Origin: an uncultured virus (IMG/VR IMGVR_UViG_3300047094_001085)
Lineage: Duplodnaviria > Heunggongvirae > Uroviricota > Caudoviricetes
DNA: 64,000 bases
IMG/VR virus record: IMGVR_UViG_3300047094_001085
Strand: one strand, 5' to 3'
Shown: positions 1 through 21,559 of the stretch, in pieces
Layout of the letters: every line of letters begins with the position of its first letter
How positions within the stretch are numbered: the first letter of the stretch is position 1
Position numbers and translations under genes: made by a program
Notes under the pieces: model-generated
The model's input: only the letters and a program-made list of their open reading frames with translations
The model's database searches: none
What the model was told of the DNA's origin: nothing

Positions 1-55
1 TCAGTAGTTTAAGAGACAGAGTTGACTTCTACTTTAAAAAAATACTCTGCGACAG

Positions 56-138
56 GCTGGTGTCGCATAGAGGTTGATTGCACCTGATTTGTAATCAGGA
101 ACCGAAAGGTCACGTTGGTTCGAATCCAATCACCAGCT
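56..138 (+). tRNA. tRNA-Thr(TGT) with atypical long variable arm
   Basis: Acceptor GCTGGTG/CACCAGC; anticodon stem CCTGA/TCAGG with loop TT-TGT-AA; T-arm TTGG-TTCGAAT-CCAA; extra ACC-GAAA-GGT hairpin. Confidence 0.8.
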
Positions 139-364
139 CAGGTCATCCACTTTCGTTCTCTCCGTATGAGGGTATGGGTTCTTGGATGTAAAATGTAGAA
201 CTCGGACGGTTGTAAAAACAACTAAAAGAGAATACGGTCTTTTTACAAATTTTTGTGGGACAAAAAATATGGGTTCTTCGGTGGGCACCGGGTTATTTCT
301 CTTAAAATAACACAACTACTAAAAGTATGGACACATATGGGGAAACCGAACCCGTGTCCTATAT

Positions 365-444
365 AGTCGGGTGGCGGAATTGGATAGACGCGGCCCCGTC
401 GAGGGGTTTAACCGGAATTACAGGTTCGAGTCCTGTCCTGACTA
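365..444 (+). ncRNA. tRNA-like RNA, AGTCRGG family copy 1 (non-canonical anticodon arm)
   Basis: Acceptor AGTCGGG/CCTGACT+A; Leu-type D-arm GGCGGAATTGGATAGACGC; T-arm ACAGG-TTCGAGT-CCTGT; central hairpin lacks U33. Confidence 0.7.
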
Positions 445-446
445 CA

Positions 447-648
447 ATTGAGTGAGAGATACTCAATAGATTTGGTATCGTTTCTTAAACAATGATGTAG
501 CTGACGCCTCAAACGGTTTTACAGAGGGGGTCGTAGGAAAAAAGGGAGTGTACCAACTCACCTCCTAGTAATGGTTGACTTTTAAGCGGTAAGACGCGAT
601 GGGTTTTGAATAGGAAAACTGTGGACATCTACACCAAATTAATCTCAT
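447..648 (+). ncRNA. putative structured RNA between tRNA genes
   Basis: ORF-free and GC-richer than flanks; hairpin ATTGAGT-GAGAGAT-ACTCAAT; long-range GATTTGGT...ACCAAATT pairing. Confidence 0.4.
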
Positions 649-660
649 TGGTGGACAACT

Positions 661-740
661 GCCCCCGTGGTGAAATTGGTAAACACAGCAGGCTTAAAAC
701 TTGCCGCATATGCTTACGAGTTCGAGTCTCGTCGGGGGTA
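661..740 (+). tRNA. tRNA-Leu(TAA)
   Basis: GCCCCCG/CGGGGGT acceptor; GCAGG-CT-TAA-AA-CTTGC anticodon arm; variable arm; TTCGAGT T-loop. Confidence 0.9.
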
Positions 741-754
741 CAAAAATATATATT

Positions 755-940
755 ATGACTATTGAATACTTAAAAGAACACGGAAAGGATGTTTGTGGTG
801 TATGTGAGCCTGCTAATATTGGTGGAAAATACGTAAATCAAACTGTTGATGGTTTAAGACTTTGGAAATGTGAAGGTAGATATTATTGGGTTGAATCCGA
901 TAATGTTTCAATAGTTTATGATACTTTATTAGATGGTTAA
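755..940 (+). CDS. hypothetical protein
   Basis: ORF trimmed to ATG 755 because the upstream part overlaps tRNA-Leu. Confidence 0.55.
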   Translation: MTIEYLKEHGKDVCGVCEPANIGGKYVNQTVDGLRLWKCEGRYYWVESDNVSIVYDTLLDG

Positions 941-1121
941 AAATAACAAACATTAAACCGACAGTGACAAATAGACCAAGTGTGGCACACGTAAAATTGT
1001 ATCAGTCGAAAGTTGAGGTGATAGACCACCATATGTTTGATATTTATATTTAATTGATTATATTACTAATATGAAAAACCAACAACCAAACTCCACATAG
1101 TTTTAGCAGTTAGCTAAGATT

Positions 1122-1352
1122 ATGACTCAGAAATTGAGAATTTGGAGAGTAGTTCCCGTTTATAACGGTGTTCAGGCTCCCACTTTTTTCGTAGAAACTA
1201 CGGAAGAGGGACGTGAGAAGGCAGAGGAATCTGCAATTAAACAAGCACGAATGAAATCGGGCTTAGGAAAGTTCAAACAATGGAACTTTAGATTGGAGAA
1301 ACTCTCTGTGAGGGTTGATAAATTTGGTAGGTATATTAAACACCACCAATAG
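1122..1352 (+). CDS. hypothetical protein
   Basis: 76-aa ORF with phage-like composition. Confidence 0.65.
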   Translation: MTQKLRIWRVVPVYNGVQAPTFFVETTEEGREKAEESAIKQARMKSGLGKFKQWNFRLEKLSVRVDKFGRYIKHHQ

Positions 1353-1442
1353 GTCACAACTAAACCGCTGGGGGTTTCAAATTACTCAGTGTACTTTTTA
1401 GGTTAAAGTCATGTAGGGTGTTTACACCAAAACCTAATTTTT

Positions 1443-1518
1443 GTCCTATTAGCTCAGTCCGGTTAGTAGCAGTTCGCTCATAACGAAAAGGTCACAGGTT
1501 CGAATCCTGTATAGGACA
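1443..1518 (+). tRNA. tRNA-Met/Ile2(CAT)
   Basis: GTCCTAT/ATAGGAC acceptor; loop CT-CAT-AA; ACAGG-TTCGAAT-CCTGT T-arm. Confidence 0.88.
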
Positions 1519-1522
1519 CAAT

Positions 1523-1550
1523 AACCTTCAAGGAAACTTGGGGGTTTTTT
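1523..1550 (+). terminator. intrinsic terminator closing the tRNA cluster
   Basis: AACCTTCAAG-GAAA-CTTGGGGGTT followed by a T-tract. Confidence 0.75.
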
Positions 1551-1572
1551 ATTTTATAAGATATTTATAGTC

Positions 1573-2598
1573 ATGCCAAACTCAATAAAATATAACGTAA
1601 GTGCGGAAACATTAGCTCTCAAGAAAGGAAACTTTTGGATTGGGACAGGTGATGTTGGAAAAGGACCAACTAGTTCAACGGGGTTTTATAATGGGATAAC
1701 GCCACCACCAGAAGGTTATACAATATATCTTAATAAAGTGAGTGGTGGTCCAACTATCTATACCGCAACAAACGATGCTCAATTAATAAGTATTACAAAT
1801 TTAATTGCTGGTGCATCATATACAACTGTTGCTCAATGTTTGACATATTATGCCGGACAAACTGACAAGATGATTTTTAATATTGATTATCCACCAATTG
1901 TCACCAATGGTTTAACCGCTTGTTTAGATGTTACTAATATATTGAGTTATCCTAATACAGGTAATATTTGGTATGATTTAAGTGGAAGTGATAATAATGG
2001 TAGTTTAGCAATTGGTTCACCAACATACACAACTTTTGAGGGTAAAAGGACCATTAGATTTTCAAATCTTAATAAAACAGTATACCAAGGTAATCATGAT
2101 GGATTTATACTTAATAGCAACCCAGGAATAACAGCGGCAGGAACAAGTTTTACATTTGAAGCGTGGTTTTATCAATTAAGTGCTAACCAAGGAGGGACTG
2201 TAATATTGGCGAATGCTGGTGGTTGTGATGGATATAGATGGGGCCCCAATGGTAGTTTTACTTATTGGTTATTGGGTAATTCTGATTGTAGTCAATATTC
2301 TGAAGGAGGAATTAATGTTTCAACCTCATTTATTGGTAGGTGGGTTCAGATGGTTGGAATATTTGATAGGGCAAATACTTTAGGAGGTGGGGCTAAATTT
2401 TATAGTTATGTAAATAATAGTTTAGAAGGAAGTGTAGGGACATACACACCAACAATTCAATTAGGTAGTCCTGGTATTGTAAATTGTTGTGGTGCGTTTG
2501 ATGGTTATTTATCTGTTGTTCGTGTTTATAATAGAGCTTTAACTCAAACAGAAATTACACAAAATTGGAACGCTCAAAAATCATATTTTGGATTATGA
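1573..2598 (+). CDS. LamG/concanavalin A-like lectin domain virion protein
   Basis: GLTACLD..SYP..G..WYDLSG and VRVYNRALTQTEI..NWNA motifs typical of phage LamG-fold proteins; TATTTAT upstream. Confidence 0.75.
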   Translation: MPNSIKYNVSAETLALKKGNFWIGTGDVGKGPTSSTGFYNGITPPPEGYTIYLNKVSGGPTIYTATNDAQLISITNLIAGASYTTVAQCLTYYAGQTDKMIFNIDYPPIVTNGLTACLDVTNILSYPNTGNIWYDLSGSDNNGSLAIGSPTYTTFEGKRTIRFSNLNKTVYQGNHDGFILNSNPGITAAGTSFTFEAWFYQLSANQGGTVILANAGGCDGYRWGPNGSFTYWLLGNSDCSQYSEGGINVSTSFIGRWVQMVGIFDRANTLGGGAKFYSYVNNSLEGSVGTYTPTIQLGSPGIVNCCGAFDGYLSVVRVYNRALTQTEITQNWNAQKSYFGL

Positions 2599-2759
2599 CA
2601 ATAATAAATTTTTATTTTACAGTAACAGGAGGTTGGATTGAATACCTTCAAAATGGACAAACAATAAAAGAGTTGTTTGATACTTCAGAATCTTTATATG
2701 ATTTTATAAAAAAAAATAATTTACCTTTAACTTATTCAGGTTGTTTAACTTGTAAATAA
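2595..2759 (+). CDS. small hypothetical protein
   Basis: ATGA overlap with the previous stop; C-terminal CxxC. Confidence 0.45.
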   Translation: MTIINFYFTVTGGWIEYLQNGQTIKELFDTSESLYDFIKKNNLPLTYSGCLTCK

Positions 2760-2941
2760 AAATGTTCAACAGGTACCAATGCAATAAAGTAATTTACTTT
2801 ATTATTGATTAAAAACAAATTGTCCTTATATTTATTAATGAAACCTTGTTGCTGAGGTTCACGTGTCCACAGAGGCATTTGAGTTGGAAATGATACCAAC
2901 GAAGTGAAGTTCAATAAACATAAAAATAAAATAAGGAAATT

Positions 2942-3808
2942 ATGTATTACCAAACAAAAACAGGTACGCCTTGTGCGTACATCTCAAAAGACAGAAAACG
3001 TCTTAAACAATTTGGACAAACTGTCTATCTAAACAACGGGGAAGAATTCGAACTAGAATTATTTAACCCATCATCAACCACAGTATTAGCGAAAATCAAA
3101 CTTGACGGAAATTATATTTCCGGAGGAGGAATTGTTCTTAAACCGGGACAAAGAGTATTTCTTGAGAGATACCTTGACGACGCTCGTAAATTTAAGTTTG
3201 AAACTTATGAAGTTGACGGAACATCAAATGAGGTATTGGATGCTATCTCCGGAAATGGGGATGTTGTTATTGACTTCTTTGATGAATATAAACAACCGGT
3301 GTGGAATAACCCTATAACTTATGTTGGTGGTTCATTCGGTGGACCAATTCACATTTATGGAAGTAATACTCTTAACACAAATTATGTGAATGGTATGACA
3401 ACAACCACAAATGGTAATGTATCATTTACATCATCAAGTAATACTGCGGGAGTTAATTTTAATACTACTTCAATAAGTAATACTTTTGCAGGACCAAACT
3501 TAAGAAGTGCGACTTCAAGATTAAAAAAATCTAAACCTAATTCTCGTAGTGAGGTTACTATGGATATGTTATCTATGGACTCTATTGAAACCGGTAGAGT
3601 TGAAAAAGGTGGCTCATCTGACCAATCTTTTAAAACTGTGGATAAAAATTTTAATCATCACACTTGTGCAAGTTCTGTATGGAAGATTCTACCTATGTCA
3701 CAAAAGGTATATGAGAAACAAGACCTAAAAGTATATTGTACTAACTGTGGAAAAAAAAGAAAAAAGGATTCCGATAAATTTTGTTCTTCTTGTGGGAACA
3801 AATTCTAA
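2942..3808 (+). CDS. hypothetical protein with C-terminal zinc ribbon
   Basis: 288 aa; CTNCG...FCSSCG zinc ribbon. Confidence 0.8.
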   Translation: MYYQTKTGTPCAYISKDRKRLKQFGQTVYLNNGEEFELELFNPSSTTVLAKIKLDGNYISGGGIVLKPGQRVFLERYLDDARKFKFETYEVDGTSNEVLDAISGNGDVVIDFFDEYKQPVWNNPITYVGGSFGGPIHIYGSNTLNTNYVNGMTTTTNGNVSFTSSSNTAGVNFNTTSISNTFAGPNLRSATSRLKKSKPNSRSEVTMDMLSMDSIETGRVEKGGSSDQSFKTVDKNFNHHTCASSVWKILPMSQKVYEKQDLKVYCTNCGKKRKKDSDKFCSSCGNKF

Positions 3809-3911
3809 AAAATAAACTAATAACAAGGTTTCAAATTAAATCCATCATTTTTTCGTGATGGATTTTTTTATATTAAAAATTTGACTATCTTTGTAAAAAA
3901 ATATATAAAGT

Positions 3912-4385
3912 ATGAAAAGAATTTTTATTGATATGGATGGTGTGTTGGTCGATTTAGGTGCAGAATTCGATAAATGGTTCGATGAACATCCAAATTTAGT
4001 CCACAAGTATAAACATAGTCCAGACCATATTCCAGGTATTTTTAGAGACCCTAAACCATATGATGGTGCTATTGAAGCAATCAATAAGTTGGTTGAGAGT
4101 GGTAAGTATGAATTATTAATTGCGACAGCCGCTCCATGGGGAAACCCATATGCTTCAACAGATAAGAGGTATTGGATTGAAAAATATTTTGGTAGGTTGT
4201 TTCACAAGAAAATGGTAATAACTCACCGAAAAGATTTATTACTTGGTGATTATTTAATTGATGATAGAACGGCAAACGGTGCCGGAGAGTTCACCGGTGA
4301 ATTAATTCATTTCGGTTGGAATTATGAGAAAAAAGTTTGGAATGAATATCCTGATTGGGATAGTGTATTAAAAAAATTATTATAA
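3912..4385 (+). CDS. 5'(3')-deoxyribonucleotidase (HAD, NT5C family)
   Basis: IFIDMDGVL, TAAPW, K..W and LIDDR motifs. Confidence 0.85.
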   Translation: MKRIFIDMDGVLVDLGAEFDKWFDEHPNLVHKYKHSPDHIPGIFRDPKPYDGAIEAINKLVESGKYELLIATAAPWGNPYASTDKRYWIEKYFGRLFHKKMVITHRKDLLLGDYLIDDRTANGAGEFTGELIHFGWNYEKKVWNEYPDWDSVLKKLL

Positions 4386-4386
4386 A

Positions 4387-4857
4387 ATGGAAAATAATGT
4401 AAAACCACCTTACCGTATCTATTTAGATGACGTAAGAACTCCAACGGGAGATAATTGGATTGTTGTAAGAAATTACGATGAATTTGTTAGTGAAGTAAAT
4501 AAAGTTGGGTTAGAAAATATTGATATAATATCTTTGGACCACGATTTGGGAGATACTGCAATGAATGAGTATTTCAATAATGTTTCTCCAAATTATACTT
4601 TGGATTATAACAATATTGAAGAAAAAACGGGATATGATGCAGCTAAATTCTTGGTTGCATTATTTCACAACACTAATGAAGCTCGTTTTAATATGAGTCG
4701 AAGTGAAAGAAAGGCAAACAAATTTGTGTTTCCAATTGTGTATGTTCATTCAGCAAACCCTATCGGGAGTGCGAACATTATGGGATATTTGAACAATTTT
4801 TATATGAACGAGGGTCAAGCACAAACTTGTGTTAGAGTCCAAATACCACACGTATAA
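4387..4857 (+). CDS. cyclic-phosphate-processing receiver-domain protein
   Basis: IYLDDVRTP, ISLDHDLG, TGYD and HSANPIG motifs. Confidence 0.75.
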   Translation: MENNVKPPYRIYLDDVRTPTGDNWIVVRNYDEFVSEVNKVGLENIDIISLDHDLGDTAMNEYFNNVSPNYTLDYNNIEEKTGYDAAKFLVALFHNTNEARFNMSRSERKANKFVFPIVYVHSANPIGSANIMGYLNNFYMNEGQAQTCVRVQIPHV

Positions 4858-5354
4858 TGAATATATTTTTCTTGGATGAAAATCCTACATTGTCGGCTCA
4901 ATACCACGTAGACAAACACGTAGTAAAAATGATATTGGAAACTGCTCAGTTACTATGTTCGGTTCATCACGTAACCGAACAAGTAACCGAACAAGTACCG
5001 TACAAGTTGTCACATAAAAATCACCCTTGTGCTGTTTGGGCTCGTCAGAGTTTATCAAATTATTTGTACTTGTGTGAGTTGGGATTGGAGTTAGGAAAAG
5101 AATATACTCACAGGTATGGTAAGAAACATAAATCAATTCAGGTTATTGAATGGTGTATTATAAATAAACCAAACATCCCGGACATTGGTTTTACTACTCC
5201 GGCTATGGCAATGCCGGATGAGTTTAAAGTAGATTCTGTTGTAGAATCTTACAGAAATTATTATATGGGTGCTAAAATTAGTTTAGCGTCTTGGAAAAAT
5301 AGAGAAAAACCTTTTTGGTTTGGAAAAAAAGAATTACATTTGCAGTATGATTAA
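4857..5354 (+). CDS. pyrimidine-dimer DNA glycosylase/endonuclease V family protein
   Basis: MNIFFLD, DKHVVKMILETAQLL and HKNHPC motifs. Confidence 0.75.
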   Translation: MNIFFLDENPTLSAQYHVDKHVVKMILETAQLLCSVHHVTEQVTEQVPYKLSHKNHPCAVWARQSLSNYLYLCELGLELGKEYTHRYGKKHKSIQVIEWCIINKPNIPDIGFTTPAMAMPDEFKVDSVVESYRNYYMGAKISLASWKNREKPFWFGKKELHLQYD

Positions 5355-6009
5355 GATAGAGAAAGATAGAAAAGTTTTTATTACGTCCGATACACATTAC
5401 GGACATAAAAACATTTGCCGTGGAGTAACGGCTTGGAGATTACCGGATGGTAGCATTCCTGAATCACAGACAAGAAATTTTGAAACAATTGATGAAATGA
5501 ATGATGTAATCATCAACAACATCAATTCAGTTGTTGGTCAAGATGATGTATTAATTCACTTGGGTGACTGGTCTTTTGGAGGATTTGAAAATATTCAAAA
5601 ATTCAGAGATAGAATTTTGTGTAAAGAGATTCACCTTATATTGGGTAACCACGACCACCACATTGAAAACAACCGAGAGGATTGTCAGGAAATGTTTGCA
5701 AGTGTTAATCACTACACAAAATTAATGTATAAGTTTGAGACATTGGTTTTAATGCACTATCCAATTGATTCTTGGGATGGGTTAAACAAAGGACACATCC
5801 ACTTACACGGACACTGTCACTTACCTCAAACAAAAATTTTTGGTAAAGGCCGTAGAATGGATGTAGGAATGGATGGTAGTTTGTTCTTTTCACCATACGA
5901 TTTAAGTAACGTAATTAAGATTGTTAAGGAAAGAGAGATTCGTTCAAATATGGATGGTGACCACCACACAGATGAGGTAATAACTGAAGATGGTAAAAAA
6001 AGAAAGTGA
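5347..6009 (+). CDS. calcineurin-like metallophosphoesterase
   Basis: SDTHYGH, HLGD, GNHD, HYP and HGHCH motifs; ATG start at 5347. Confidence 0.88.
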   Translation: MIKIEKDRKVFITSDTHYGHKNICRGVTAWRLPDGSIPESQTRNFETIDEMNDVIINNINSVVGQDDVLIHLGDWSFGGFENIQKFRDRILCKEIHLILGNHDHHIENNREDCQEMFASVNHYTKLMYKFETLVLMHYPIDSWDGLNKGHIHLHGHCHLPQTKIFGKGRRMDVGMDGSLFFSPYDLSNVIKIVKEREIRSNMDGDHHTDEVITEDGKKRK

Positions 6010-6010
6010 T

Positions 6011-6301
6011 ATGAGAGTTAAAGAAACAAAAACAGATTTATTCATATGTTCCTGTCATAGTACAGAACATCAAATGGTTGTATTATATTCTGAAGACGAA
6101 ATTGATGGTATGACATATCCTATGGTTTATATTCACACACATCTTAATAAAAGACCATTTTGGCAAAGAGTTGGTTATGGATTAAGATATATTTTTGGGA
6201 GACAATGTAGATATGGTGCCTTTGATGAATTCATAATTAAATCGGAGGATGTTAAAGGTCTTGAAAAAATTATTAAACATTTAAAAGAATGTGAGGTATG
6301 A
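6011..6301 (+). CDS. hypothetical protein
   Basis: ORF in operon, start taken at the second Met. Confidence 0.6.
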   Translation: MRVKETKTDLFICSCHSTEHQMVVLYSEDEIDGMTYPMVYIHTHLNKRPFWQRVGYGLRYIFGRQCRYGAFDEFIIKSEDVKGLEKIIKHLKECEV

Positions 6302-6507
6302 TAAAAAATTTAATAATATTATTTTTATTTTTCACTTTGGTGTCTTGTGAAGCTGAAAAAAGAATTTATGAACATTCATATACTGATGAATGGTATTATA
6401 TTGACACGATGAGATTTCAGGTTTACAAAACCAAATCAGGTAAAAGATATATCCTTGTGTTAAATGAACAACAAACAAAATATAAACGACAATACATAAA
6501 ATTATGA
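6298..6507 (+). CDS. small putative lipoprotein
   Basis: hydrophobic signal peptide with LVSC lipobox. Confidence 0.55.
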   Translation: MIKNLIILFLFFTLVSCEAEKRIYEHSYTDEWYYIDTMRFQVYKTKSGKRYILVLNEQQTKYKRQYIKL

Positions 6508-6905
6508 AAGAATTATTTTTATTAAGAGGATTACCGGGAAGTGGTAAATCAACATTGGCAAAATCAATCGGTGGTATTCATATTGAAGCTGATATGTTTT
6601 TTATGAAAGATGGTGAATATCAATTTGATTTTACAAAATTAAAAGACGCTCACGCTTGGTGTCAAGAAAGTACTGAAAAAAGTATGAGAGCACTTGATAA
6701 TCCTAAAATTGGGACTAAGAGAATTATTGTATCAAACACATTCACACAAGAGTGGGAAATGACACCTTATTTTGAATTAGCGGAAAAATATGGATACAGA
6801 GTTCATTCACTTATCGTAGAAAACAGACACGGAGGAGTTAATCAACACGGGGTTCCGGAAGATAAGTTGGAAATAATGAAAAATCGTTTTGAAGTTAAAC
6901 TTTAA
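6504..6905 (+). CDS. polynucleotide kinase-like P-loop protein (AAA_33)
   Basis: RGLPGSGKST Walker A; EAD, VSNTF and HGVP motifs. Confidence 0.8.
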   Translation: MKELFLLRGLPGSGKSTLAKSIGGIHIEADMFFMKDGEYQFDFTKLKDAHAWCQESTEKSMRALDNPKIGTKRIIVSNTFTQEWEMTPYFELAEKYGYRVHSLIVENRHGGVNQHGVPEDKLEIMKNRFEVKL

Positions 6906-6938
6906 TTCCGTATCTTTGACCCACAAAATTATTTAATT

Positions 6939-7268
6939 ATGAGCGGAGGAGCATTTGATTACAACCAATATAAAATTGGTTATATCGCAGACCAAATAGA
7001 AGAGGTTATTGTGAAGAATGGTGTTAAGAAAACACCGGAAGAAATTAAAGATGAAGGTTGGAGAGACGATTCTTGGTATGAAAAATATCCCGAAGATAAA
7101 TTCCATTACAAATATCCGGATGAGGTTATTGAGAAGATGAAAGAGGCGGTTAAGTCTCTTAAAATTGCTCAAGAATATGCTCAACGAGTGGATTGGTTAT
7201 TATCGGGTGATGACAGTGAAGAATCATTCTTAAGTAGATTAGAAGAGAATTTAAAAAAAATAGAATAA
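6939..7268 (+). CDS. hypothetical protein
   Basis: MSGGAFDY...RVDWLLSGDD; coherent ORF. Confidence 0.7.
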   Translation: MSGGAFDYNQYKIGYIADQIEEVIVKNGVKKTPEEIKDEGWRDDSWYEKYPEDKFHYKYPDEVIEKMKEAVKSLKIAQEYAQRVDWLLSGDDSEESFLSRLEENLKKIE

Positions 7269-7269
7269 A

Positions 7270-8295
7270 ATGTTAGAAAAACTAAACAAATATTACGAAG
7301 ACGGATTACTTTACAAACAAGTACATCCATCACTTCCATTAACCATATGGAATTATACTGAAAAAGTTCAGTACGAGAACCTATGGGATGAGGTGACCCT
7401 GATGTGTAGAGGTTTAGTTACCGATAACGAAGGGAATATGGTTGCAATACCATTTCAAAAGTTCTTCAATATAGAAGAAGGTAAATTTACACCAACTGAA
7501 AATTTTGAAGTTTATGAAAAGATGGATGGTTCATTAGGGATTGTGTTTTGGTATCAAGGTCAATGGGTGGTAGCCACTCGTGGTTCATTCACTTCTGACC
7601 AAGCAATCAAGGCGACAGAAATCCTTAAAAAATATAACAAAGATATTATGTTCAGACATTTAACTTTCTGTTTTGAAATTATCTATCCGGAGAACAGAAT
7701 TGTTTTGGATTATGGTAATGATGAGAAACTAGTTCTATTAGGGACATTTGATAAGAACGGAAAAGAAACTGATTCTGAAATTTGGTCACAATGGGGGTTT
7801 GATGTGGTTAAAAAATATGACGGTATCACCGACTACAAACAACTAAAAGAAATGGTTAAAAACGACCAAGAAGGTTTTGTGGTAAAGTTCTCCAATGGAG
7901 ATAGAATCAAAGTTAAAGGGGTTGAATATCTACGTCTTCACAAAATTATGACCAACGTTACCACAACCGGTATTTGGGAGTATTTGAAAAATGGTGAGGA
8001 TGTGATGGAGTTATTAAAAGATGTTCCGGATGAATTCTATAAAAAAATTCAAAACTATGTTAAAGATTTGAGATATTCTTACTTCCAAATATCTGAAGAT
8101 GCAGGTAAAAAGTTTGATTATATGATGTATGGGAAATATAACGACAAAGAACCTATCACAGATAGAAAAGAGTTTGCTGAGTGGGTATCAACCCAACCAA
8201 AACATTTGTCAGGGATTCTATTTAGAATGTTAGATAAAAAAGATTACTCTGAAATCATATGGAACCTAATCAGACCGGAATTTAAAAAATTGTAA
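7270..8295 (+). CDS. RNA ligase, T4 Rnl1/RnlA family
   Basis: CRGLV, KFFN, EKMDGS (motif I), ATRGSF, EGFVV and KVK motifs. Confidence 0.88.
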   Translation: MLEKLNKYYEDGLLYKQVHPSLPLTIWNYTEKVQYENLWDEVTLMCRGLVTDNEGNMVAIPFQKFFNIEEGKFTPTENFEVYEKMDGSLGIVFWYQGQWVVATRGSFTSDQAIKATEILKKYNKDIMFRHLTFCFEIIYPENRIVLDYGNDEKLVLLGTFDKNGKETDSEIWSQWGFDVVKKYDGITDYKQLKEMVKNDQEGFVVKFSNGDRIKVKGVEYLRLHKIMTNVTTTGIWEYLKNGEDVMELLKDVPDEFYKKIQNYVKDLRYSYFQISEDAGKKFDYMMYGKYNDKEPITDRKEFAEWVSTQPKHLSGILFRMLDKKDYSEIIWNLIRPEFKKL

Positions 8296-8369
8296 AAAAG
8301 TGGGGCGTTAGTTCCACTTTTTTTATTTAATTACTATTTATAAGTTATATAAAACATTAAGTTAAAATT

Positions 8370-8975
8370 ATGAGTGTATCTATAATAGTAGCGTTTATCA
8401 CGGGGGTTTTAGGTCCTATTCTATTATTATTCATTAAGAATAAATTAGAAAAAAAAGCAGAAAAGCCGGATATGGTATTGGAAACGTTAAAAGTCAGTGA
8501 GCTTGTAATGACCAAATTAGACCATATAAAGGAAGAATATAAAGGAGATAGAGTATGGGTTGCACAATTCCACAATGGAGGTAATTTCTATCCAACCGGA
8601 AAATCAATGGCAAAGTTCAGTATTATATATGAATCTGTTGCTCCGTCAGTATCATCAATACAAGGAAATTTTCACAATATACCTGTTAATTTATTTAGCC
8701 GTTCAATTAATCAATTATTAGAACATGATACAATTGAAATTCCTGATTTTAAAGATGATACAGTAGCGACTTTTGGTTTAAAATATATTGCAGAAGATAC
8801 CGGATGTAAATCAGGATATCTTTTTGCGATAAAATGTATTGAAGGTAGATTTATTGGAATGTTAGGAATTGATTATACCAAGAAAAAAACAAAATTAAAC
8901 GAAGAAACTGTAACTCAATTATTGGTTCAGTCAACATCAATTGGTGGTGTGTTAATGAACCACTTACAACAATAA
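8370..8975 (+). CDS. membrane-anchored GAF-like protein (possible holin)
   Basis: single N-terminal TM helix followed by a GAF-like alpha/beta domain (FHNGG, GMLGIDY). Confidence 0.5.
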   Translation: MSVSIIVAFITGVLGPILLLFIKNKLEKKAEKPDMVLETLKVSELVMTKLDHIKEEYKGDRVWVAQFHNGGNFYPTGKSMAKFSIIYESVAPSVSSIQGNFHNIPVNLFSRSINQLLEHDTIEIPDFKDDTVATFGLKYIAEDTGCKSGYLFAIKCIEGRFIGMLGIDYTKKKTKLNEETVTQLLVQSTSIGGVLMNHLQQ

Positions 8976-8976
8976 T

Positions 8977-9591
8977 ATGAAAAAATTAATACAATTATTA
9001 GAAGCGAATATTCAGATATCATCTTTGAGTTGTGGAAACGTTAAAGTAGATAATGATAGTTCAAGTGATAAAGTTAATGAAAATTTATTGAAGGATATTT
9101 GTAAAGCGGCTAAAAATGCTAATGTTAGGGTTACTATAACTACAGCAATTTCAGGTCATAGTGCGGAAACAGCATCAGGAAACACAAGTAGACATCCATC
9201 AGGTAATGCTGTCGATATTAGTTTAGTTAATGAAACTCCGGTTAAAACTCCGTCAAATAGAGGTAATGTTGATAATTTTGTTAATCAATTAGAAATACTG
9301 GGATATACTAAAAATTCTGAACCTGATTCTTCAGTTCCTAAATCAGTTTTAACTTTTGGTTTTCCGGGTCATGATAATCATGTTCATGTCTCAAATATTG
9401 AACAAAGTTCCACAACATCATCTAGTGGTACAACATCATCTAGTGGGACTGCAGCGGCAAAGGATAGTCCTGAATCTATAAGTACAAATATTTTAAATAG
9501 TTTTATTGGAGATACGTTTGGTAAGGCTTTAGGGTTAAGAGAACAAAGAGTAAATAAAGAAATAAGTAAAATTAAAAACTTACTTAAATAA
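8977..9591 (+). CDS. peptidase M15-like Zn peptidoglycan hydrolase
   Basis: SRH-x6-D (SRHPSGNAVD) and HDNHVH zinc-ligand motifs. Confidence 0.65.
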   Translation: MKKLIQLLEANIQISSLSCGNVKVDNDSSSDKVNENLLKDICKAAKNANVRVTITTAISGHSAETASGNTSRHPSGNAVDISLVNETPVKTPSNRGNVDNFVNQLEILGYTKNSEPDSSVPKSVLTFGFPGHDNHVHVSNIEQSSTTSSSGTTSSSGTAAAKDSPESISTNILNSFIGDTFGKALGLREQRVNKEISKIKNLLK

Positions 9592-9620
9592 AAAAACCCC
9601 TCCGTTAAGAGGGGTTTTTT
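9590..9620. terminator. bidirectional intrinsic terminator
   Basis: AAAAAACCCCT-CCGTTAAG-AGGGGTTTTTT between convergent genes. Confidence 0.75.
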
Positions 9621-9628
9621 GTTTTAGA

Positions 9629-9802
9629 TTACTTCACTTGAGTAGTATCTACTTGTGTAGTGTCTACGGCTGTTGTATCTACTGATACTGAATCAACCGC
9701 TGTTGTATCAACAGATGTTGTTGATTCTTCTGTGTTTACTTGTTTACAAGATGTTAATGATAATGTTGCAATCACTGTAAGAGCTAATAATACTTTTTTC
9801 AT
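9629..9802 (-). CDS. small Thr/Asp-rich lipoprotein (not in ORF track)
   Basis: MKKVLLALTVIATLSLTSC-KQVNTEESTTSVDTTAVDSVSVDTTAVDTTQVDTTQVK; lipobox LTSC. Confidence 0.8.
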   Translation of the reverse strand: MKKVLLALTVIATLSLTSCKQVNTEESTTSVDTTAVDSVSVDTTAVDTTQVDTTQVK

Positions 9803-9935
9803 AATACTTTGTTTTAAATTAATTTTTAAGTTCGTTAAATAAATAGTTAATTAAAACGGGTAAGTCAAACATTATACCAAAAAAATTTACTTAATCGTTG
9901 TAATAAAAAATTTTTAAAAATATTTTTAGATAATG

Positions 9936-9966
9936 TTTGGTGTAAAGAAAAAAAGTATTATCTTTG
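9936..9966 (+). promoter_or_regulatory. Bacteroidota sigma-A type promoter
   Basis: TTTG-N19-TATCTTTG. Confidence 0.75.
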
Positions 9967-9987
9967 TACTCACAAAACGGATAAGAT

Positions 9988-10242
9988 ATGGCTAAAGAGA
10001 AATTGTATAGAAGTGTTAATGGTGAATACCTATATTTGTTTAATTGGATTGGTGGTGGATTTAATGATGTGTGGGGTCCAAGTAAAAGAGAGGCGTATGC
10101 TCGTGTTATGAGAGAACAAAAGGAACACGAGAAGAAATATCCAACTCACGTTAAGTTGAGACCGGACTATAAGTCAATGAGAAAATGTACTTATTCTCAG
10201 TATCAAGAACAAAACCGAATGGGTTGGATGATGAGTTGTTAA
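9988..10242 (+). CDS. hypothetical protein
   Basis: 84-aa ORF directly after the promoter. Confidence 0.7.
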   Translation: MAKEKLYRSVNGEYLYLFNWIGGGFNDVWGPSKREAYARVMREQKEHEKKYPTHVKLRPDYKSMRKCTYSQYQEQNRMGWMMSC

Positions 10243-10397
10243 AAACTACTTGAGTAAGTGGGAGTGGTCAATCAACAACCCAAAGAAGTTTCAGGTAAAA
10301 CTATATTTAAAAGAGGACGGCCGAGCCTATAATAGAGTAAGTAGGAAGTTAGTGTTTTTTAGGAAGATTGAGTCAGTTTTTAACATTAACGAAACAT

Positions 10398-10489
10398 AGT
10401 CGGGTGGCGCAATTGGTAGAGCAAGTAGATGACACAGATACTGATTCTGTAAATTTTCCGCTATACAGGTTCGAATCCTGTCCTGACTA
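10398..10489 (+). ncRNA. tRNA-like RNA, AGTCRGG family copy 2
   Basis: AGTCGGG...ACAGGTTCGAATCCTGTCCTGACTA; D-arm GGCGCAATTGGTAGAGC; extended non-canonical central arm. Confidence 0.7.
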
Positions 10490-10577
10490 CAGAGTAACTT
10501 AATGCGGTAGTAACCGAGTAGTAAGACTCCCTCAAGTGATATACCCGGTGTGGTTGGTTAATTGAAGTATCACGTAG

Positions 10578-10753
10578 AGTCAGGTGGCGGAAAGGTAGAC
10601 GATTCCCATCAACACACATAGGGAGATTCAGATTGTTGTGTGTATCGATTGTAGCACGTATTATAGCGTAAGTGACTGAAACTAAGGTCGTAGTATAATC
10701 GTAGTGTATAGGTGAAGCAATCACTCGTACAGGTTCAAATCCTGTCCTGACTA
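10578..10753 (+). ncRNA. tRNA-like RNA, AGTCRGG family copy 3 with ~125-nt central domain
   Basis: AGTCAGGTGGCGGAAAGGTAGACG...ACAGGTTCAAATCCTGTCCTGACTA. Confidence 0.7.
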
Positions 10754-10902
10754 CTTAGCAAGGTGTAAACGATTAGGAAAATTCGTCACAGGTTTACATT
10801 AAGTTGCAGACGAACCGAAATGCTTACGGTTAACAGGGCTTAACTCATAAAGTCCAGAGAGCATAATCTAACGAGTGACAGATTGGAAAGACAATCAAAT
10901 TT

Positions 10903-11004
10903 AGTCAGGAGACCATTGGTTGGTGGCACCTCCCCAAGGTTGAGTAACGATAAGGTCGACTCTTTATGGCAAAGCTGAAGCGGGTTCGAATCCTGTCCTG
11001 ACTA
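10903..11004 (+). ncRNA. tRNA-like RNA, AGTCRGG family copy 4
   Basis: AGTCAGG...GCGGGTTCGAATCCTGTCCTGACTA; divergent D region. Confidence 0.65.
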
Positions 11005-11026
11005 CAAATTTTAAAATAAATAAATT

Positions 11027-11185
11027 ATGGAAATAGTATTATTACAATTCGCATTGACTGGTTTAAACCTATACGGAGCAAAAACTCAAAAAGATAATGG
11101 TAGGAATCCCGCATTCAGTTATTTCGTTGCCGGAATGTGTTTTGGTTTTGGTTTATCCGGTTTGATAGAATTATTATTAAAATAA
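11027..11185 (+). CDS. small membrane protein (not in ORF track)
   Basis: 52 aa MEIVLLQFALTG...FVAGMCFGFGLSGLIELLLK; A-rich leader. Confidence 0.5.
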   Translation: MEIVLLQFALTGLNLYGAKTQKDNGRNPAFSYFVAGMCFGFGLSGLIELLLK

Positions 11186-11217
11186 TTTGACAGATTAAAA
11201 TAAAAGTATTATCTTTG
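11186..11217 (+). promoter_or_regulatory. Bacteroidota sigma-A type promoter
   Basis: TTTG-N20-TATCTTTG. Confidence 0.75.
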
Positions 11218-11250
11218 TAGAAGAAATAAAGTTCTTAAAAATATTGAAAA

Positions 11251-11337
11251 TATAGGTGGACGTTGTGTCGAGGTTTCAAATCCCTCCGGTTTTAACACCG
11301 TAGCTCAGATGGTAGAGCATACGTCCACTAACTTATA
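11251..11337 (+). ncRNA. circularly permuted tRNA-like RNA (YrlA-like topology)
   Basis: closing stem GTGGACGT/ACGTCCAC encloses a T-arm, then a closed acceptor-like stem CGGT-TTTAAC-ACCG, then D-arm TAGCTCAGATGGTAGAGC. Confidence 0.7.
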
Positions 11338-11339
11338 AT

Positions 11340-11431
11340 GGTATTGTAGCTCAGTGGGAGATTCGTCTTCCTTTGGTAGAGCAGGAGTAACGAAAGACTC
11401 TGTGCCGTAGGTTCGAACCCTTCCGATACCA
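11340..11431 (+). ncRNA. atypical tRNA-like RNA with hairpin inserted in the D-loop
   Basis: GGTATTG/CGATACC+A acceptor; GCTC/GAGC D-stem with GGGAGA-TTCG-TCTTCC insertion; 8-nt anticodon loop AACGAAAG; TTCGAAC T-loop. Confidence 0.6.
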
Positions 11432-11437
11432 CAAAAA

Positions 11438-11573
11438 TATAAACCATAATTTGGCGGAGGATGGAACTACGAATTTATTTGTAGTAAAGTATCGTCGGGT
11501 GAGAGACCCGGATGGATAGAAGGTAGACAAGTAATCCTAGACACGTCCGCAGATTCCTTCTCTTGGGTTTATA
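11438..11573 (+). ncRNA. putative structured RNA
   Basis: terminal TATAAACC/GGTTTATA pairing; inner GCGGA/TCCGC, ACTACGAAT/ATTTGTAGT and CGGGT/ACCCG helices. Confidence 0.45.
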
Positions 11574-11580
11574 GATTTAT

Positions 11581-11698
11581 TCTGTGATAAGATAGCAGAT
11601 AGACCTATTACAGCAGACTATCCCGTAGGGAGTGCGAGTTTTAGGTAGAATAGAATGGGTGACCTACGAATGAGTAAATCTTAAGGTCTTATCACAGA
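11581..11698 (+). ncRNA. putative structured RNA
   Basis: perfect 12-bp terminal stem TCTGTGATAAGA/TCTTATCACAGA. Confidence 0.5.
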
Positions 11699-11720
11699 TT
11701 AAAAAAAAATAAAAAAAAAG

Positions 11721-11866
11721 TTTGACAATTCAAATAAGTTTACTTACCTTTGTCAAACATTTGAGAAACAGGTTGACCGGAGTCATAAAACGTTGTATAG
11801 TTTTCCTCTTCTCAAAAAAAAAGTTTTATAAAGTGCTTGACAAATGAAAAAAATCACTTACCTTTG
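11721..11866 (+). promoter_or_regulatory. tandem sigma-A type promoters
   Basis: TTTG-N20-TACCTTTG (11721-11752) and CTTG-N19-TACCTTTG (11836-11866), each with an upstream A-tract. Confidence 0.75.
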
Positions 11867-11904
11867 TAAAACAAATTAGGGAAACCTAATACGTTCTTAG
11901 AAAT

Positions 11905-12778
11905 TTTAGATTATCCATCAGGATGTTGATGATGAGACCCTCGGGTTGATTCTGAGATAACTGAAAAACGATAATGGGTGGTATATCATCCTTAAATAAA
12001 CCGGGAAACCGGGATAAAGTGAATCTGTTGTGTTAACAGGTTTGCGGTCTCAGAAATGGGACTCGAGTATACAAGTCGGATATCGCCTAACCTTTAGTAC
12101 TGAGGGAAACTCTGTAAGGAAAGTGGTTGGGTGACCGGGAGATGTGGGTCTTTCGGTTGAGATTGGAAAATCAATAAGAATAACCGATAGGAATCAAGTG
12201 AGAAATAGGGTCATCCAACCTTATAATTGCGGGTTCCAATATGAGAGAAATCTTAAAGTCGAAAGACAAGATAAGTAACAGGTGGTGCTGTCATTATCCT
12301 TATCAAATATCTACCAAGATTTTGATTCGAAGAATTCTTAAAATATGAGAGATGGGAATTTCTACCGGGTAGATTGGTATTTCGTCGTCCAAAAGATGAT
12401 GAAGCCTAAGACAAACCTCTACTTGGACAAATCCACAACACAAACCAAACTTTTCAATAGGTGAAAAACTAACAGAAAAACGGAAAAGTGTTTGTCAGGT
12501 GATAACGAAAGTTGCTTCCATAGTCACGGGCTGTCCGTGGCACGAAAGAACCCCAAGTTCAATCGTATTTTTACCAAAAACCTCTACGGAGTCGAATCCG
12601 GAGTCAGGTCGCAAGCTTGAAGAGAGTAGAGTAGTAAGAGAGTAGTTATTATCTTAAGGAGTAATTGGTCTAACCAATTAGCAATGAGGATTACCACTCA
12701 AAAGGTGGTGGAAACGAAGGGAAACAATAATCCTTCTAAAGATTCTTACTAAGACGAGTATTCTCATCGTATTAAGCC
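11905..12778 (+). ncRNA. large ornate non-coding RNA, GOLLD-like
   Basis: ~870 nt without an ORF; GC-richer; many GNRA-capped hairpins (CCGG-GAAA-CCGG, GTC-GAAA-GAC, GGTC-GCAA-GCT); own promoter and terminator; adjacent to the tRNA-like cluster. Family assignment rests on size and context only. Confidence 0.6.
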
Positions 12779-12814
12779 AAAAAGGTAACTCATTTATTTG
12801 TGTTACCTTTTTTT
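12779..12814. terminator. bidirectional terminator
   Basis: AAAAAGGTAAC...GTTACCTTTTTTT. Confidence 0.75.
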
Positions 12815-12816
12815 GT

Positions 12817-21529: not shown

Positions 21530-21559
21530 CAATTATACTTATTTAAGTATTTATTGTTA

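What the first reader, a model, noticed from the sequence alone, without database searches (positions are those of the whole stretch)
365..11004. Family of four tRNA-scaffold RNAs: constant acceptor/T-arm, variable cargo instead of an anticodon arm
Seen: copies at 365-444, 10398-10489, 10578-10753 and 10903-11004 all start AGTC(A/G)GG and end RCRGG-TTCRART-CCTGTCCTGACTAC. They share the same A1-U72 acceptor stem and A73, and three have a Leu-type D-loop plus U48. The middles are unrelated (roughly 25 to 125 nt) and none has a canonical U33 anticodon loop. Ends kept nearly identical around freely diverged middles argue against simple pseudogene decay. Established: LeuRS reads A73 and the elbow rather than the anticodon, and RNase P/CCA enzymes read the acceptor/T-arm. 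Inference: a natural tRNA-scaffold system that processes and stabilises cargo RNAs, or aminoacylatable decoys against anticodon nucleases or tRNA-sensing defences. This is the best candidate for a new system in the window.
Basis: partly seen in the sequence, partly recalled or inferred. Interest (0 to 1): 0.88.

Follow-up and report, generated by a model that had tools for sequence, protein, structure and literature searches.

The report
Phage tRNA-Leu shells carrying swappable RNA inserts
Lake-water phages carry RNA genes that keep the outer frame of a leucine tRNA but replace the decoding arm with very different inserts, which suggests a natural tRNA scaffold for small RNAs whose role is still unknown.

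Summary
The four window copies belong to a family of at least 273 distinct elements in uncultured viral contigs. All have a paired acceptor stem (mostly AGUCAGG/CCUGACU), A73, C74, a D-arm identical to bacterial tRNA-Leu, U8, A14, A15-U48 and a standard T-arm. Between D-arm and T-arm sit about 20-160 nt with no anticodon loop; 186 of 219 insert clusters are singletons.

RNA-level selection is shown. The acceptor, D and T stems and the 15-48 tertiary pair covary. The flanks (U-1, C74 then AA/UA) match those of genuine tRNAs in the same phages.

Inserts are not junk. Homologous inserts are about 0.9 identical while their flanks look random, and they carry compensatory changes. Conversely, the same genomic slot holds unrelated inserts in related phages, so inserts behave as cassettes.

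The family is not tRNA-island debris: 55 of 81 loci have no canonical tRNA nearby, and in three complete ~34 kb genomes it is the only tRNA-like gene. No linked protein was found, and GOLLD is not obligatory.

Best reading: tRNA-processed, stable, tRNA-Leu-shaped RNAs with a selected, exchangeable payload. Payload function, leucylation and any decoy role are untested. The closest known relative is T4 species 1 RNA.

The parts
365..444 (+). Copy c1, 80 nt, the most tRNA-like member. It has a Leu-type D-arm. Its pseudo-anticodon arm GGCCCC-GUCGA-GGGGUU has G where U33 should be. C74 follows at 445.
   Evidence: Rfam tRNA 35.3 bits. A homologue with 97% identical insert lies in L035, with a related downstream flank and an unrelated upstream flank.
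10398..10489 (+). Copy c2, 92 nt, with a 42-nt insert.
   Evidence: (37.1 bits). Relatives with the same upstream flank (L161, L182) carry other inserts. c2 is absent from the 97%-identical relative G002.
10578..10753 (+). Copy c3, 176 nt, with an insert of about 126 nt.
   Evidence: only a 3' fragment reaches 20.3 bits. L072 shares the upstream flank but has another insert. c3 is absent from G002.
10903..11004 (+). Copy c4, 102 nt. The D-arm is replaced and the T-stem is GCGGG/CCUGU with two G-U pairs. The insert type recurs in other contigs.
   Evidence: Homologous inserts occur in L059, L148 and L007. The inner hairpin changes CGA/UCG to CGG/CCG to CAG/CUG, read by eye.
10876..10902 (+). 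Leader motif GUGACAG-stem-GGAAAGAC-stem-AA that ends at the 5' end of c4. This is a minority feature of the family.
   Evidence: A GGAAAGAC-like octamer lies in 25 of 270 upstream flanks. By my count of the printed rows, about 14 of these have the full hairpin ending at position -1.
9954..9968 (+). Promoter-like motif AGTATTATCTTTGTA. It contains TAnnTTTG, which I recall as the Bacteroidota -7 element. It heads the unit ORF 9988-10242, c2, c3, c4, ORF 11027-11185.
   Evidence: One search finds exact copies at 9954 and 11205 and near copies at 13900, 16519 (-, 13 nt before the tmRNA) and 17977. No terminator-like site lies between 9968 and 11205.

Best explanation
These are phage RNA genes built on a tRNA-Leu frame.

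- Transcription (inferred): they are transcribed from phage promoters, alone or together with tRNAs or mRNAs.
- Processing (inferred): the host tRNA maturation enzymes cut them out. RNase P would cut between U-1 and A1. The 3' end would be trimmed to the encoded C74 and completed to CCA.
- Fold (shown at sequence level): the acceptor stem, Leu-type D-arm, T-arm and the U8-A14, A15-U48 and G18G19/T-loop contacts are kept, so the RNA should fold into the tRNA elbow and core.
- Effect of the shell (inferred): it gives defined ends and stability.
- Payload: an unrelated, often structured insert of about 20-160 nt projects from where the anticodon and variable arms would be. Selection on the insert is shown. 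What it binds is unknown.
- Exchange: the constant arms also act as homology arms, so inserts are exchanged, gained and lost as cassettes between phages. The pattern is shown; the mechanism is inferred.
- Leucylation (untested): because bacterial LeuRS reads A73 and the tertiary core rather than the anticodon arm, the RNAs may be leucylated.

My odds:
- RNA genes matured like tRNAs: about 0.85.
- The insert is the selected working part: about 0.6.
- The role lies in phage-host or phage-phage conflict: about 0.4.
For: Size of the family:
- Seeding with the 5' end instead gives 128 distinct elements. Of these, 119 have the 3' module within 3 mismatches.
- Pooled, there are 280 distinct elements, 273 of them 200 nt or shorter, with median length 106.5 nt.

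tRNA-Leu frame:
- Positions 5-26 are 22/22 identical to annotated tRNA-Leu genes in 5426 of 5426 E. coli genomes.
- U8 is present in 273/273, A14 in 260/273 and A15-U48 in 231/273.
- Of the 7 elements with G15, 6 have C48.
- T-stems carry compensatory variants such as GCGGG/CCCGU and GCUGG/CCAGC.

Acceptor covariation, on a sample not seeded on the acceptor:
- 62 of 70 elements form 7/7 pairs, with 25 distinct stems.
- Mean pairs per stem are 6.36, against 4.66 with partners shuffled (highest 5.60 in 500 shuffles).
- MW202828.1 has AGUGCAG/CUGCACU around an insert homologous to AGUCAGG members.

Processing context:
- Position -1 is T in 81% and position 74 is C in 97%, followed by AA or TA (272 elements).
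- In 185 canonical tRNAs of the same loci, -1 is T in 68% and C74 is present in 86%, followed by CAA or CTA.
- All copies within a record lie on one strand, in 44 of 44 records with matches.

Inserts are selected and modular:
- 186 of 219 insert clusters are singletons.
- In 59 pairs with homologous inserts, insert identity is 0.90 against 0.46 for the flanks. In 44 of the 59, both flanks are indistinguishable from random pairs.
- Homology stops at the predicted RNA ends.
- Compensatory pairs occur inside inserts.
- In 46 of 56 pairs with at least 0.8 identical upstream flanks, the inserts are unrelated.
- One slot upstream of TerL holds four unrelated inserts.
- The relative G002, 97% identical to the window in the flanking 2.4 kb, lacks c2 and c3, with the junction in the shared 5' heptamer.

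Stand-alone gene:
- 55 of 81 loci have no canonical tRNA in the DNA held (up to 10 kb each side).
- In the complete genomes G012, G021 and G049 (about 34 kb each) it is the only Rfam tRNA hit.

LeuRS: A73 and the core tertiary pairs are critical, and the anticodon arm is dispensable for aminoacylation (PMC2377443, abstract and passages).
Against: - No direct evidence of expression, ends or CCA. RNA-library contigs give depth 4-70 over the elements against 10^3-10^4 over GOLLD. Part of that cover comes from relatives' constant parts, and DNA carry-over cannot be excluded.
- MFE folding shows no enrichment of a helix closing the insert: 46 of 214 against 43.4 in shuffles. The inserts are only moderately more stable than shuffles (mean z -1.0).
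- No motif is shared between inserts.
- No protein partner is linked. The commonest neighbour family is in 9 of 76 loci.
- Inserts match nothing outside the family in 1.6 Mb of phage DNA. Of 485 hits, 477 lie next to family constant parts. The window's inserts match nothing else in the window. So no target is known.
- The samples were seeded with family motifs, so the dominance of AGUCAGG/CCUGACU is partly ascertainment.
- The 46-of-56 figure is inflated, because identical elements were collapsed before counting.
- Insert clusters were defined by similarity, so the 0.90 identity is partly by construction; the informative part is the randomness of the flanks.
- Compensatory counts rest on alignments of only 3-4 sequences.
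Confidence: 0.6

Rival explanations
1. Decoy or sponge. The tRNA-Leu shell is the working part. It ties up a host factor that reads the acceptor end or elbow, such as a tRNA-targeting defence enzyme, LeuRS, EF-Tu or a CCA-end-modifying toxin. The middle only needs to lack a cleavable anticodon loop.
For: - The shell is far more constant than the middle.
- No motif or closing helix is shared between inserts.
- Copy number reaches 11 per record.
- The window phage invests in tRNA repair and rescue: Rnl1-type ligase, kinase, phosphoesterase, cREC, SmpB and tmRNA.
- The Leu identity elements are kept.
Against: - A filler should drift as fast as the flanks. Instead homologous inserts stay about 0.9 identical where flanks are random, and they show compensatory pairs.
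- Inserts are mostly longer than a native anticodon plus variable arm (median element 106.5 nt).
- RNA-repair genes are not linked in other carriers. Window ORFs hit at most 6 of 80 loci.
Confidence: 0.2
2. Punctuation. The elements are processing signals, like the t-elements of plant mitochondria. They make RNase P and 3' enzymes cut polycistronic transcripts and set mRNA ends. The middle is irrelevant.
For: - c2-c4 sit between two small ORFs in one promoter-to-promoter unit with no terminator-like site.
- In 7 loci the element lies 0-47 nt upstream of TerL on the same strand. In the 6 of these displayed, it sits right behind a TATCTTTG promoter-like motif in 5.
- t-elements are a precedent (PMC1920247, seen only as a search listing with the start of its abstract).
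Against: - One signal would do, yet arrays of 3-11 occur.
- A minimal RNase P substrate needs no Leu-type D-arm, no A15-U48 and no A73, all of which are conserved.
- Inserts are conserved and covary.
Confidence: 0.07
3. DNA-level element. The constant ends are recombination or homing sites, or the ends of a small mobile element, and the tRNA likeness is incidental.
For: - Cassette gain, loss and replacement occur exactly at the constant ends.
- The constant ends are near-invariant across phages that share almost no proteins.
- An acceptor-swapped tRNA-Ile body exists (L102 against L148).
Against: - Compensatory changes keep RNA helices and the 15-48 tertiary pair.
- All copies in a record lie on one strand.
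- No recombinase or nuclease is linked.
- The tRNA-type flanks U-1 and C74 are kept.
Confidence: 0.05
4. Neutral debris. The elements are decaying tRNA-Leu pseudogenes produced by duplication in tRNA islands.
For: - Some copies are degenerate. Of the 128 5'-seeded elements, 9 lack a proper 3' end.
- Some carriers have 17-26 canonical tRNAs nearby.
- Rfam scores them as weak tRNAs, 33-45 bits.
Against: - The ends are conserved across hundreds of elements while the middles differ.
- 55 of 81 loci have no canonical tRNA in the DNA held, and three complete small genomes carry the element alone.
- Covariation is present.
Confidence: 0.03
5. Interrupted tRNA-Leu genes. The middle is an intron, and its removal yields an ordinary tRNA.
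For: I recall that tRNA-Leu genes of cyanobacteria carry group I introns in the anticodon loop. The window encodes an RNA ligase.
Against: - No conserved anticodon-stem exon sequence lies next to the D-arm or T-arm.
- Inserts of about 20-160 nt are below the size I recall for group I introns.
- No intron family matched in Rfam.
- These phages already carry normal tRNA-Leu genes.
Confidence: 0.02

Closest known systems
Phage T4 species 1 RNA (rnaC), a small stable RNA of the T4 tRNA cluster
   Same: - It is encoded among the tRNA genes of a T4-type phage, and the window phage has T4-type portal, prohead protease, capsid and terminase genes.
- It is 139 nt, with a terminal stem, a standard T-arm CCGGG-UUCGAAU-CCCGG next to the 3' strand, and non-tRNA hairpins inside (z -4.57).
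- Its role is still unknown (PMC3014915, passage).
   Different: - T4 did not appear among the 40 records matched by c2 in the phage collection.
- rnaC has no Leu-type D-arm and an imperfect terminal stem.
- It is not known as a hypervariable, many-membered family with exchangeable inserts.
Engineered tRNA scaffold for recombinant RNA expression (Ponchon and Dardel; recalled, with follow-up PMC3753655 seen only in a search listing)
   Same: An RNA of interest is placed where the anticodon arm sits. The tRNA shell gives processing by the host tRNA enzymes and protection from nucleases.
   Different: - It is man-made.
- It keeps the anticodon stem as a closing helix, whereas these inserts show no enriched closing helix.
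- Here the shell is specifically Leu-type.
TMER RNAs of murine gammaherpesvirus 68 (viral tRNA-like unit fused to pre-miRNA hairpins; recalled)
   Same: A virus uses a non-decoding tRNA-like unit to express and process other small RNAs.
   Different: - The payload lies downstream of the tRNA-like unit, not inside it.
- It depends on eukaryotic Pol III and tRNase Z.
- There is no homology.
tmRNA and YrlA (bacterial Y RNA), the natural tRNA mimics in Rfam
   Same: Both keep the acceptor/T-arm or the elbow of a tRNA and replace the decoding part with another functional domain. Both kinds occur in this window: tmRNA at 16111-16506, and a sub-threshold YrlA-like match at 11243-11342.
   Different: - tmRNA has the G3-U70 alanine identity, a tag ORF and pseudoknots.
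- In YrlA the RNA ends lie at the Ro-binding stem.
- Neither Rfam model matches c1-c4.
t-elements of plant mitochondria (PMC1920247, seen as a search listing with the start of its abstract)
   Same: tRNA-like structures without decoding function that are cut by tRNA processing enzymes.
   Different: They serve to set mRNA ends and are not known to carry conserved, exchangeable inserts.

Membership tests
Decoding tRNA (Rfam RF00005) | Acceptor stem, D-arm, T-arm and the core tertiary nucleotides | tested here: met
   c1 and c2 pass the Rfam cut-off weakly (35.3 and 37.1 bits, against a cut-off of 29).
Decoding tRNA (Rfam RF00005) | Five-pair anticodon stem with a 7-nt loop and U33 | tested here: not met
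   - c1 has G33, the c2 stem is weak, and c3 and c4 have none (read by eye).
- ARAGORN assigns scattered or no anticodons across 60 loci.
- No closing helix is enriched.
Bacterial LeuRS substrate (tRNA-Leu identity set) | A73 discriminator | tested here: met
   A73 is present in 254 of 273, G in 18 and U in 1. All four window copies have A73. Its importance is documented in PMC2377443.
Bacterial LeuRS substrate (tRNA-Leu identity set) | Leu-type D-arm and the core contacts U8-A14, A15-U48 and G18G19 with the T-loop | tested here: met
   Met at the sequence level only. c4 lacks the D-arm.
Bacterial LeuRS substrate (tRNA-Leu identity set) | Correct orientation of the variable arm, and actual leucylation | not testable with these tools
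   It needs an aminoacylation assay. The inserts have no common architecture.
tmRNA | G3-U70, tag reading frame, pseudoknots, match to the Rfam models | tested here: not met
   The elements have U3-A70. The Rfam tmRNA model matches only 16111-16506.
YrlA / bacterial Y RNA | Match to RF02553, with the RNA ends in a Ro-binding stem | tested here: not met
   Only 11243-11342 matches, at 38.9 bits against a cut-off of 69. c1-c4 do not match.
tRNA gene with a group I intron | Conserved anticodon-arm exons and a group I core | tested here: not met
   No Rfam intron match, and no conserved bases next to the arms.
T4 rnaC-type stable RNA of a phage tRNA cluster | Terminal stem plus T-arm around a non-tRNA interior, in a T4-type phage | tested here: met
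T4 rnaC-type stable RNA of a phage tRNA cluster | Sequence homology to rnaC | tested here: not met
   T4 is not among the records matched by c2. No direct pairwise alignment was made.
GOLLD-linked tRNA | Obligate co-occurrence with GOLLD RNA | tested here: not met
   GOLLD is present in 4 of 50 carrier records and in 1 of 12 records that are at least 90% complete.

The most novel reading that the evidence does not exclude
Phages of lake Bacteroidota run a natural tRNA-scaffold cassette platform. A constant tRNA-Leu shell guarantees maturation, stability and perhaps leucylation. Its two arms also serve as recombination arms through which phages trade a large pool of small structured RNA payloads. 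These payloads could be, for example, RNA mimics or inhibitors aimed at strain-specific host defences or rival phages. That would make it an RNA counterpart of an integron or a hypervariable accessory locus.
Probability: 0.3. Interest if true: 0.9.

Novelty: new variant of a known kind. Interest (0 to 1): 0.78.

Why it matters
- Non-decoding, tRNA-shaped stable RNAs in phage tRNA clusters have been known since T4 species 1 and 2, but remain unexplained (PMC3014915). This family gives hundreds of natural variants on one frame. That makes the question testable by comparison and by swapping inserts.
- It would be a natural precedent for the tRNA-scaffold trick used in RNA engineering, and a source of small structured RNAs selected in phage-host conflict.
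- Annotation pipelines will call these elements weak or pseudo tRNAs with arbitrary anticodons. This distorts phage tRNA counts and codon-usage arguments.
- I found nothing in print on this family. Searches returned nothing relevant, and no Rfam family other than tRNA matched it in the DNA scanned.

Tried and rejected
- Megablast of window 1-12000 against cultured phages gave no match.
- The window's own assembly is not held.
- Earlier-findings look-ups returned nothing.
- Expression. RNA-library contigs of four runs were laid on 9900-12900. GOLLD is covered at very high depth. The elements get low, patchy cover that partly belongs to relatives' constant parts. One 220-nt contig stops at 10491, two bases past c2. 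I draw no conclusion about expression or ends of the elements from this.
- Linked protein. tblastn of 111 window ORFs against 80 carrier loci gave at most 6 loci per ORF. All-against-all clustering of 2134 ORFs from 76 loci gave a top family in 9 loci. The top families are ordinary phage genes.
- GOLLD as partner: rejected.
- Host tRNA mimicry or an att site. The 22-mer occurs in only 27 stretches of 185,579 species genomes, all from MAGs or uncultured bins. By title, 15 of the 27 are Bacteroidota.
- Common insert architecture or motif: none found.
- Inserts as copies or antisense of other DNA: none found in 1.6 Mb of loci or in the window. Host genomes were not tested.
- Terminase link. 8 of 15 loci with a TerL hit have the element within 90 nt, but they belong to one or two related lineages, so I treat this as one slot and not as a rule.
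- Cultured carrier. None was found in the phage collection. Tenacibaculum phage pT24 has other odd tRNA-like genes, but not this family.
- Not used: the metagenome-contig scan, the covariance-model tools, and the protein-structure and complex tools.

Full report
THE OBSERVATION

They share AGTC(A/G)GG at the start and GGTTC(G/A)A(A/G)TCCTGTCCTGACTA at the end. The 14-mer TCCTGTCCTGACTA occurs four times, all on the + strand, against 0.19 expected; none of 100 shuffles reached four.

ARAGORN calls c1 'Arg(tcg)' and c2 'Cys(aca)' and misses c3 and c4. Rfam's tRNA model gives 35.3 and 37.1 bits to c1 and c2, 20.3 bits to a 3' fragment of c3, and nothing for c4. The window's ordinary tRNAs score 55.8-58 bits.

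By my reading of the sequence, c1 has G where U33 should be. c2 and c3 have imperfect D-stems, and c4 has no Leu-type D-arm.

HOW LARGE THE FAMILY IS

- Seeding with the 3' end. These hold 175 elements, and 156 of them have an exact AGTCRGG within 420 nt upstream. They collapse to 143 distinct sequences, and single elements run continuously from 54 to 191 nt.
- Seeding with the 5' end and D-arm. This gave 128 distinct elements. Of these, 119 have the 3' module within three mismatches and 9 are degenerate.
- Pooled sample. There are 280 distinct elements, 273 of them 200 nt or shorter, with median length 106.5 nt.
- Copy number. Records carry 0 to 11 copies, and all copies in a record lie on one strand.
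- Cellular genomes. The 22-mer is almost absent: 27 stretches in 185,579 species genomes, all from MAGs or uncultured bins. By title, 15 of the 27 are Bacteroidota.
- Cultured phages. None in the phage collection carries it. One uncultured complete genome, MW202828.1, does, and the element is unannotated there.
- Likely host. The promoter-like motif of the window contains TAnnTTTG, which I recall as the Bacteroidota -7 element. The host is therefore probably Bacteroidota of lake water, which is also what the sequencing runs that hold the window are labelled.

IT IS AN RNA AND IT IS tRNA-LEU-SHAPED

- Consensus positions 5-26 are identical, 22 of 22, to annotated tRNA-Leu genes in all 5426 E. 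coli genomes.
- U8 is invariant (273/273). A14 is in 260/273 and A15-U48 in 231/273.
- Of the seven elements with G15, six have C48. This is the other allowed form of that tertiary pair.
- T-stems show compensatory variants.
- I took a sample seeded only on the T-arm and a D-arm pattern, with no pairing required. In it, 62 of 70 elements form 7 of 7 acceptor pairs, with 25 different stem sequences. Mean pairs per stem are 6.36 against 4.66 with partners shuffled (highest 5.60 in 500 shuffles).
- Examples of other stems around the same frame are AGUCCUG/CAGGACU, GUAGAUG/CAUCUAC and GCCGAGG/CCUCGGU.

THE FLANKS ARE THOSE OF REAL tRNAs

In 272 elements, position -1 is T in 81% and position 74 is C in 97%, followed by AA or TA. 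In 185 canonical tRNAs of the same loci, -1 is T in 68% and C74 is present in 86%, and the commonest trailers are CAA and CTA. I infer maturation by RNase P and the 3'-end and CCA enzymes. This is not shown.

THE MIDDLES

- Diversity. Of 219 insert clusters, 186 are singletons. No motif is shared. MFE folds show no enriched closing helix (46 of 214 against 43.4 in shuffles) and only moderate extra stability (mean z -1.0).
- Conservation. The inserts are nevertheless not neutral filler. In 59 pairs with homologous inserts, insert identity averages 0.90 while the 80-nt flanks average 0.46. Random flank pairs average 0.38, with a 99th percentile of 0.65. In 44 of the 59 pairs both flanks fall below that percentile. 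The similarity stops at the predicted RNA ends.
- Covariation. Small alignments of three insert families show compensatory pairs. In one family, 7 of 28 predicted pairs are compensatory: three in the acceptor, one in the D-stem and three in the insert. The other two families have one compensatory pair each.
- Origin. Inserts occur only inside family members. Of 485 BLAST hits from inserts, 477 lie next to family constant parts.

CASSETTE BEHAVIOUR

- Among pairs of distinct elements whose 60-nt upstream flanks are at least 0.8 identical, 46 of 56 have unrelated inserts, in 19 groups. Identical elements had been collapsed before counting, so this share is inflated.
- One slot, behind a TATCTTTG promoter-like motif and 0-47 nt upstream of a terminase large-subunit gene, holds four unrelated inserts in related phages.
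- For the window itself, relatives share the upstream flanks of c2 (L161, L182) and c3 (L072) but carry other inserts.
- The record G002 is 97% identical to the window over the 2.4 kb upstream. It goes straight from the c2 leader into c4, with the junction in the shared 5' heptamer.
- The simplest mechanism is homologous exchange through the two constant arms. This is inferred.

NOT A BY-PRODUCT OF tRNA ISLANDS, GOLLD OR RNA REPAIR

- 55 of 81 carrier loci have no canonical tRNA in the DNA held, up to 10 kb each side.
- In three complete genomes of about 34 kb, the element is the only Rfam tRNA hit.
- GOLLD is present in 4 of 50 carrier records.
- No protein family is linked.

THE WINDOW'S OWN CONTEXT

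This context is striking but not general. The phage is T4-like and probably about 290 kb long, since G001 is rated 17% complete at 49.8 kb. Around the elements it carries:
- an RNA-repair cluster,
- SmpB and a tmRNA,
- a YrlA-like RNA,
- another non-canonical tRNA,
- a very highly represented GOLLD RNA.

WHAT IT MOST LIKELY IS

The elements are RNA genes that the tRNA machinery matures into stable, tRNA-Leu-shaped RNAs. A selected and exchangeable domain sits in place of the decoding arms.

Bacterial LeuRS depends on A73 and the core tertiary pairs and does not need the anticodon arm for charging (PMC2377443, abstract and passages). Leucylation is therefore plausible but untested.

What the inserts do is unknown. 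Rapid replacement between close relatives, together with conservation of each type across distant phages, suggests strain-specific conflict functions.

The main rival is that the shell itself is a decoy and the insert only a tolerated filler.

COMPARISON WITH WHAT IS KNOWN

The nearest relative in kind is T4 species 1 RNA (rnaC). It is 139 nt, lies in the tRNA cluster, and has a terminal stem, a standard T-arm and non-tRNA hairpins inside. Its role is still unknown (PMC3014915, passage).

In how it works, the family resembles the engineered tRNA scaffold and the tRNA-like units of MHV68; both comparisons are recalled from memory.

It is not a decoding tRNA, a tmRNA, a YrlA or an intron-bearing tRNA, because a defining feature of each was tested and not met.

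I rate it a new variant of a known kind, with about a 0.3 chance that it is a true cassette platform for RNA payloads.

Noticed in passing
window 11990-12770 (+): GOLLD RNA. Rfam matches 12365-12770 at 312 bits. RNA-library contigs from four runs of three studies cover about 11984-12774 at depths of 10^2 to above 10^4, so the RNA is probably about 780 nt and very abundant. It is only 79% identical in relative G002, whose flanking genes are 97% identical.
   Followed up: partly
window 11243-11342 (+): YrlA-like (bacterial Y RNA) match at 38.9 bits, below the cut-off of 69 (E 2e-6). It lies 24 nt behind a promoter-like motif. No Ro/TROVE protein appeared among the window ORFs I scanned with Pfam.
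   Followed up: partly
window 11340-11431 (+): Another non-canonical tRNA-like gene (Rfam 37.7 bits). The Rfam alignment shows a 21-nt insertion in the D-loop and an 8-nt stretch where the 7-nt anticodon loop should be. Its acceptor stem differs from the family's.
   Followed up: no
window 14176-14613 (+) and 16111-16506 (-): Phage-encoded SmpB (Pfam 160 bits) and tmRNA (Rfam 67.8 bits). The tmRNA sits 13 nt behind a copy of the promoter-like motif.
   Followed up: no
window 4387-8295 (+): RNA-repair gene cluster: cREC receiver domain, calcineurin-like phosphoesterase, AAA_33 kinase and a T4 Rnl1-type RNA ligase. A nucleotidyltransferase-domain ORF lies at 21554-22342.
   Followed up: no
window 56-139 (+): A tRNA with a UGU (Thr) anticodon and a long variable arm of about 12 extra nt. 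This type II shape is unusual for tRNA-Thr.
   Followed up: no
window 9954, 11205, 13900, 16519(-), 17977: Recurrent promoter-like motif AGTATTATCTTTGTA. There are 16 matches with up to 3 mismatches against 8.5 expected. The best ones sit just upstream of RNA genes or operons.
   Followed up: partly
L180, L208, L163, L204 (downstream of the element); also L193: A second tRNA-like family with acceptor GGCUAUG/CAUGGCC, a normal T-arm and a non-tRNA body. It lies between the Leu-type element and the terminase gene, and is absent from the same slot in L160.
   Followed up: no
L102:378-450 against L148:7355-7427: The same 73-nt tRNA-Ile(UAU) body occurs with two unrelated acceptor stems. One of them is close to the family's (AGUCAGG/CUUGACU). 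The acceptor arms therefore seem to be exchanged between genes.
   Followed up: no
L154, L157, L179, L193: Elements whose 3' acceptor strand is interrupted or replaced by a segment of 50-110 nt. The segment contains a strong hairpin with a UAGAAAU-like loop. In L154 and L157 the rest of the acceptor strand follows downstream.
   Followed up: no
L152:11902-11964: A freshwater-1 RNA (RF02979) match at 70.1 bits, just under its cut-off of 72, inside a large phage tRNA island that also holds 8 family members.
   Followed up: no
L422 (Tenacibaculum phage pT24, LC168164.1 192032-192477): A cultured Flavobacteriaceae phage has two 79-nt 'tRNA-Undet' genes. They have normal acceptor, D and T arms, but a 9-pair hairpin with a 5-nt loop in place of the anticodon arm. 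This could be a workable model for non-decoding tRNA-like RNAs.
   Followed up: partly
L424 (T4, NC_000866 70908-71046): T4 rnaC folds with a terminal stem and a textbook T-arm next to its 3' strand (MFE -50.2 kcal/mol, z -4.57).
   Followed up: yes
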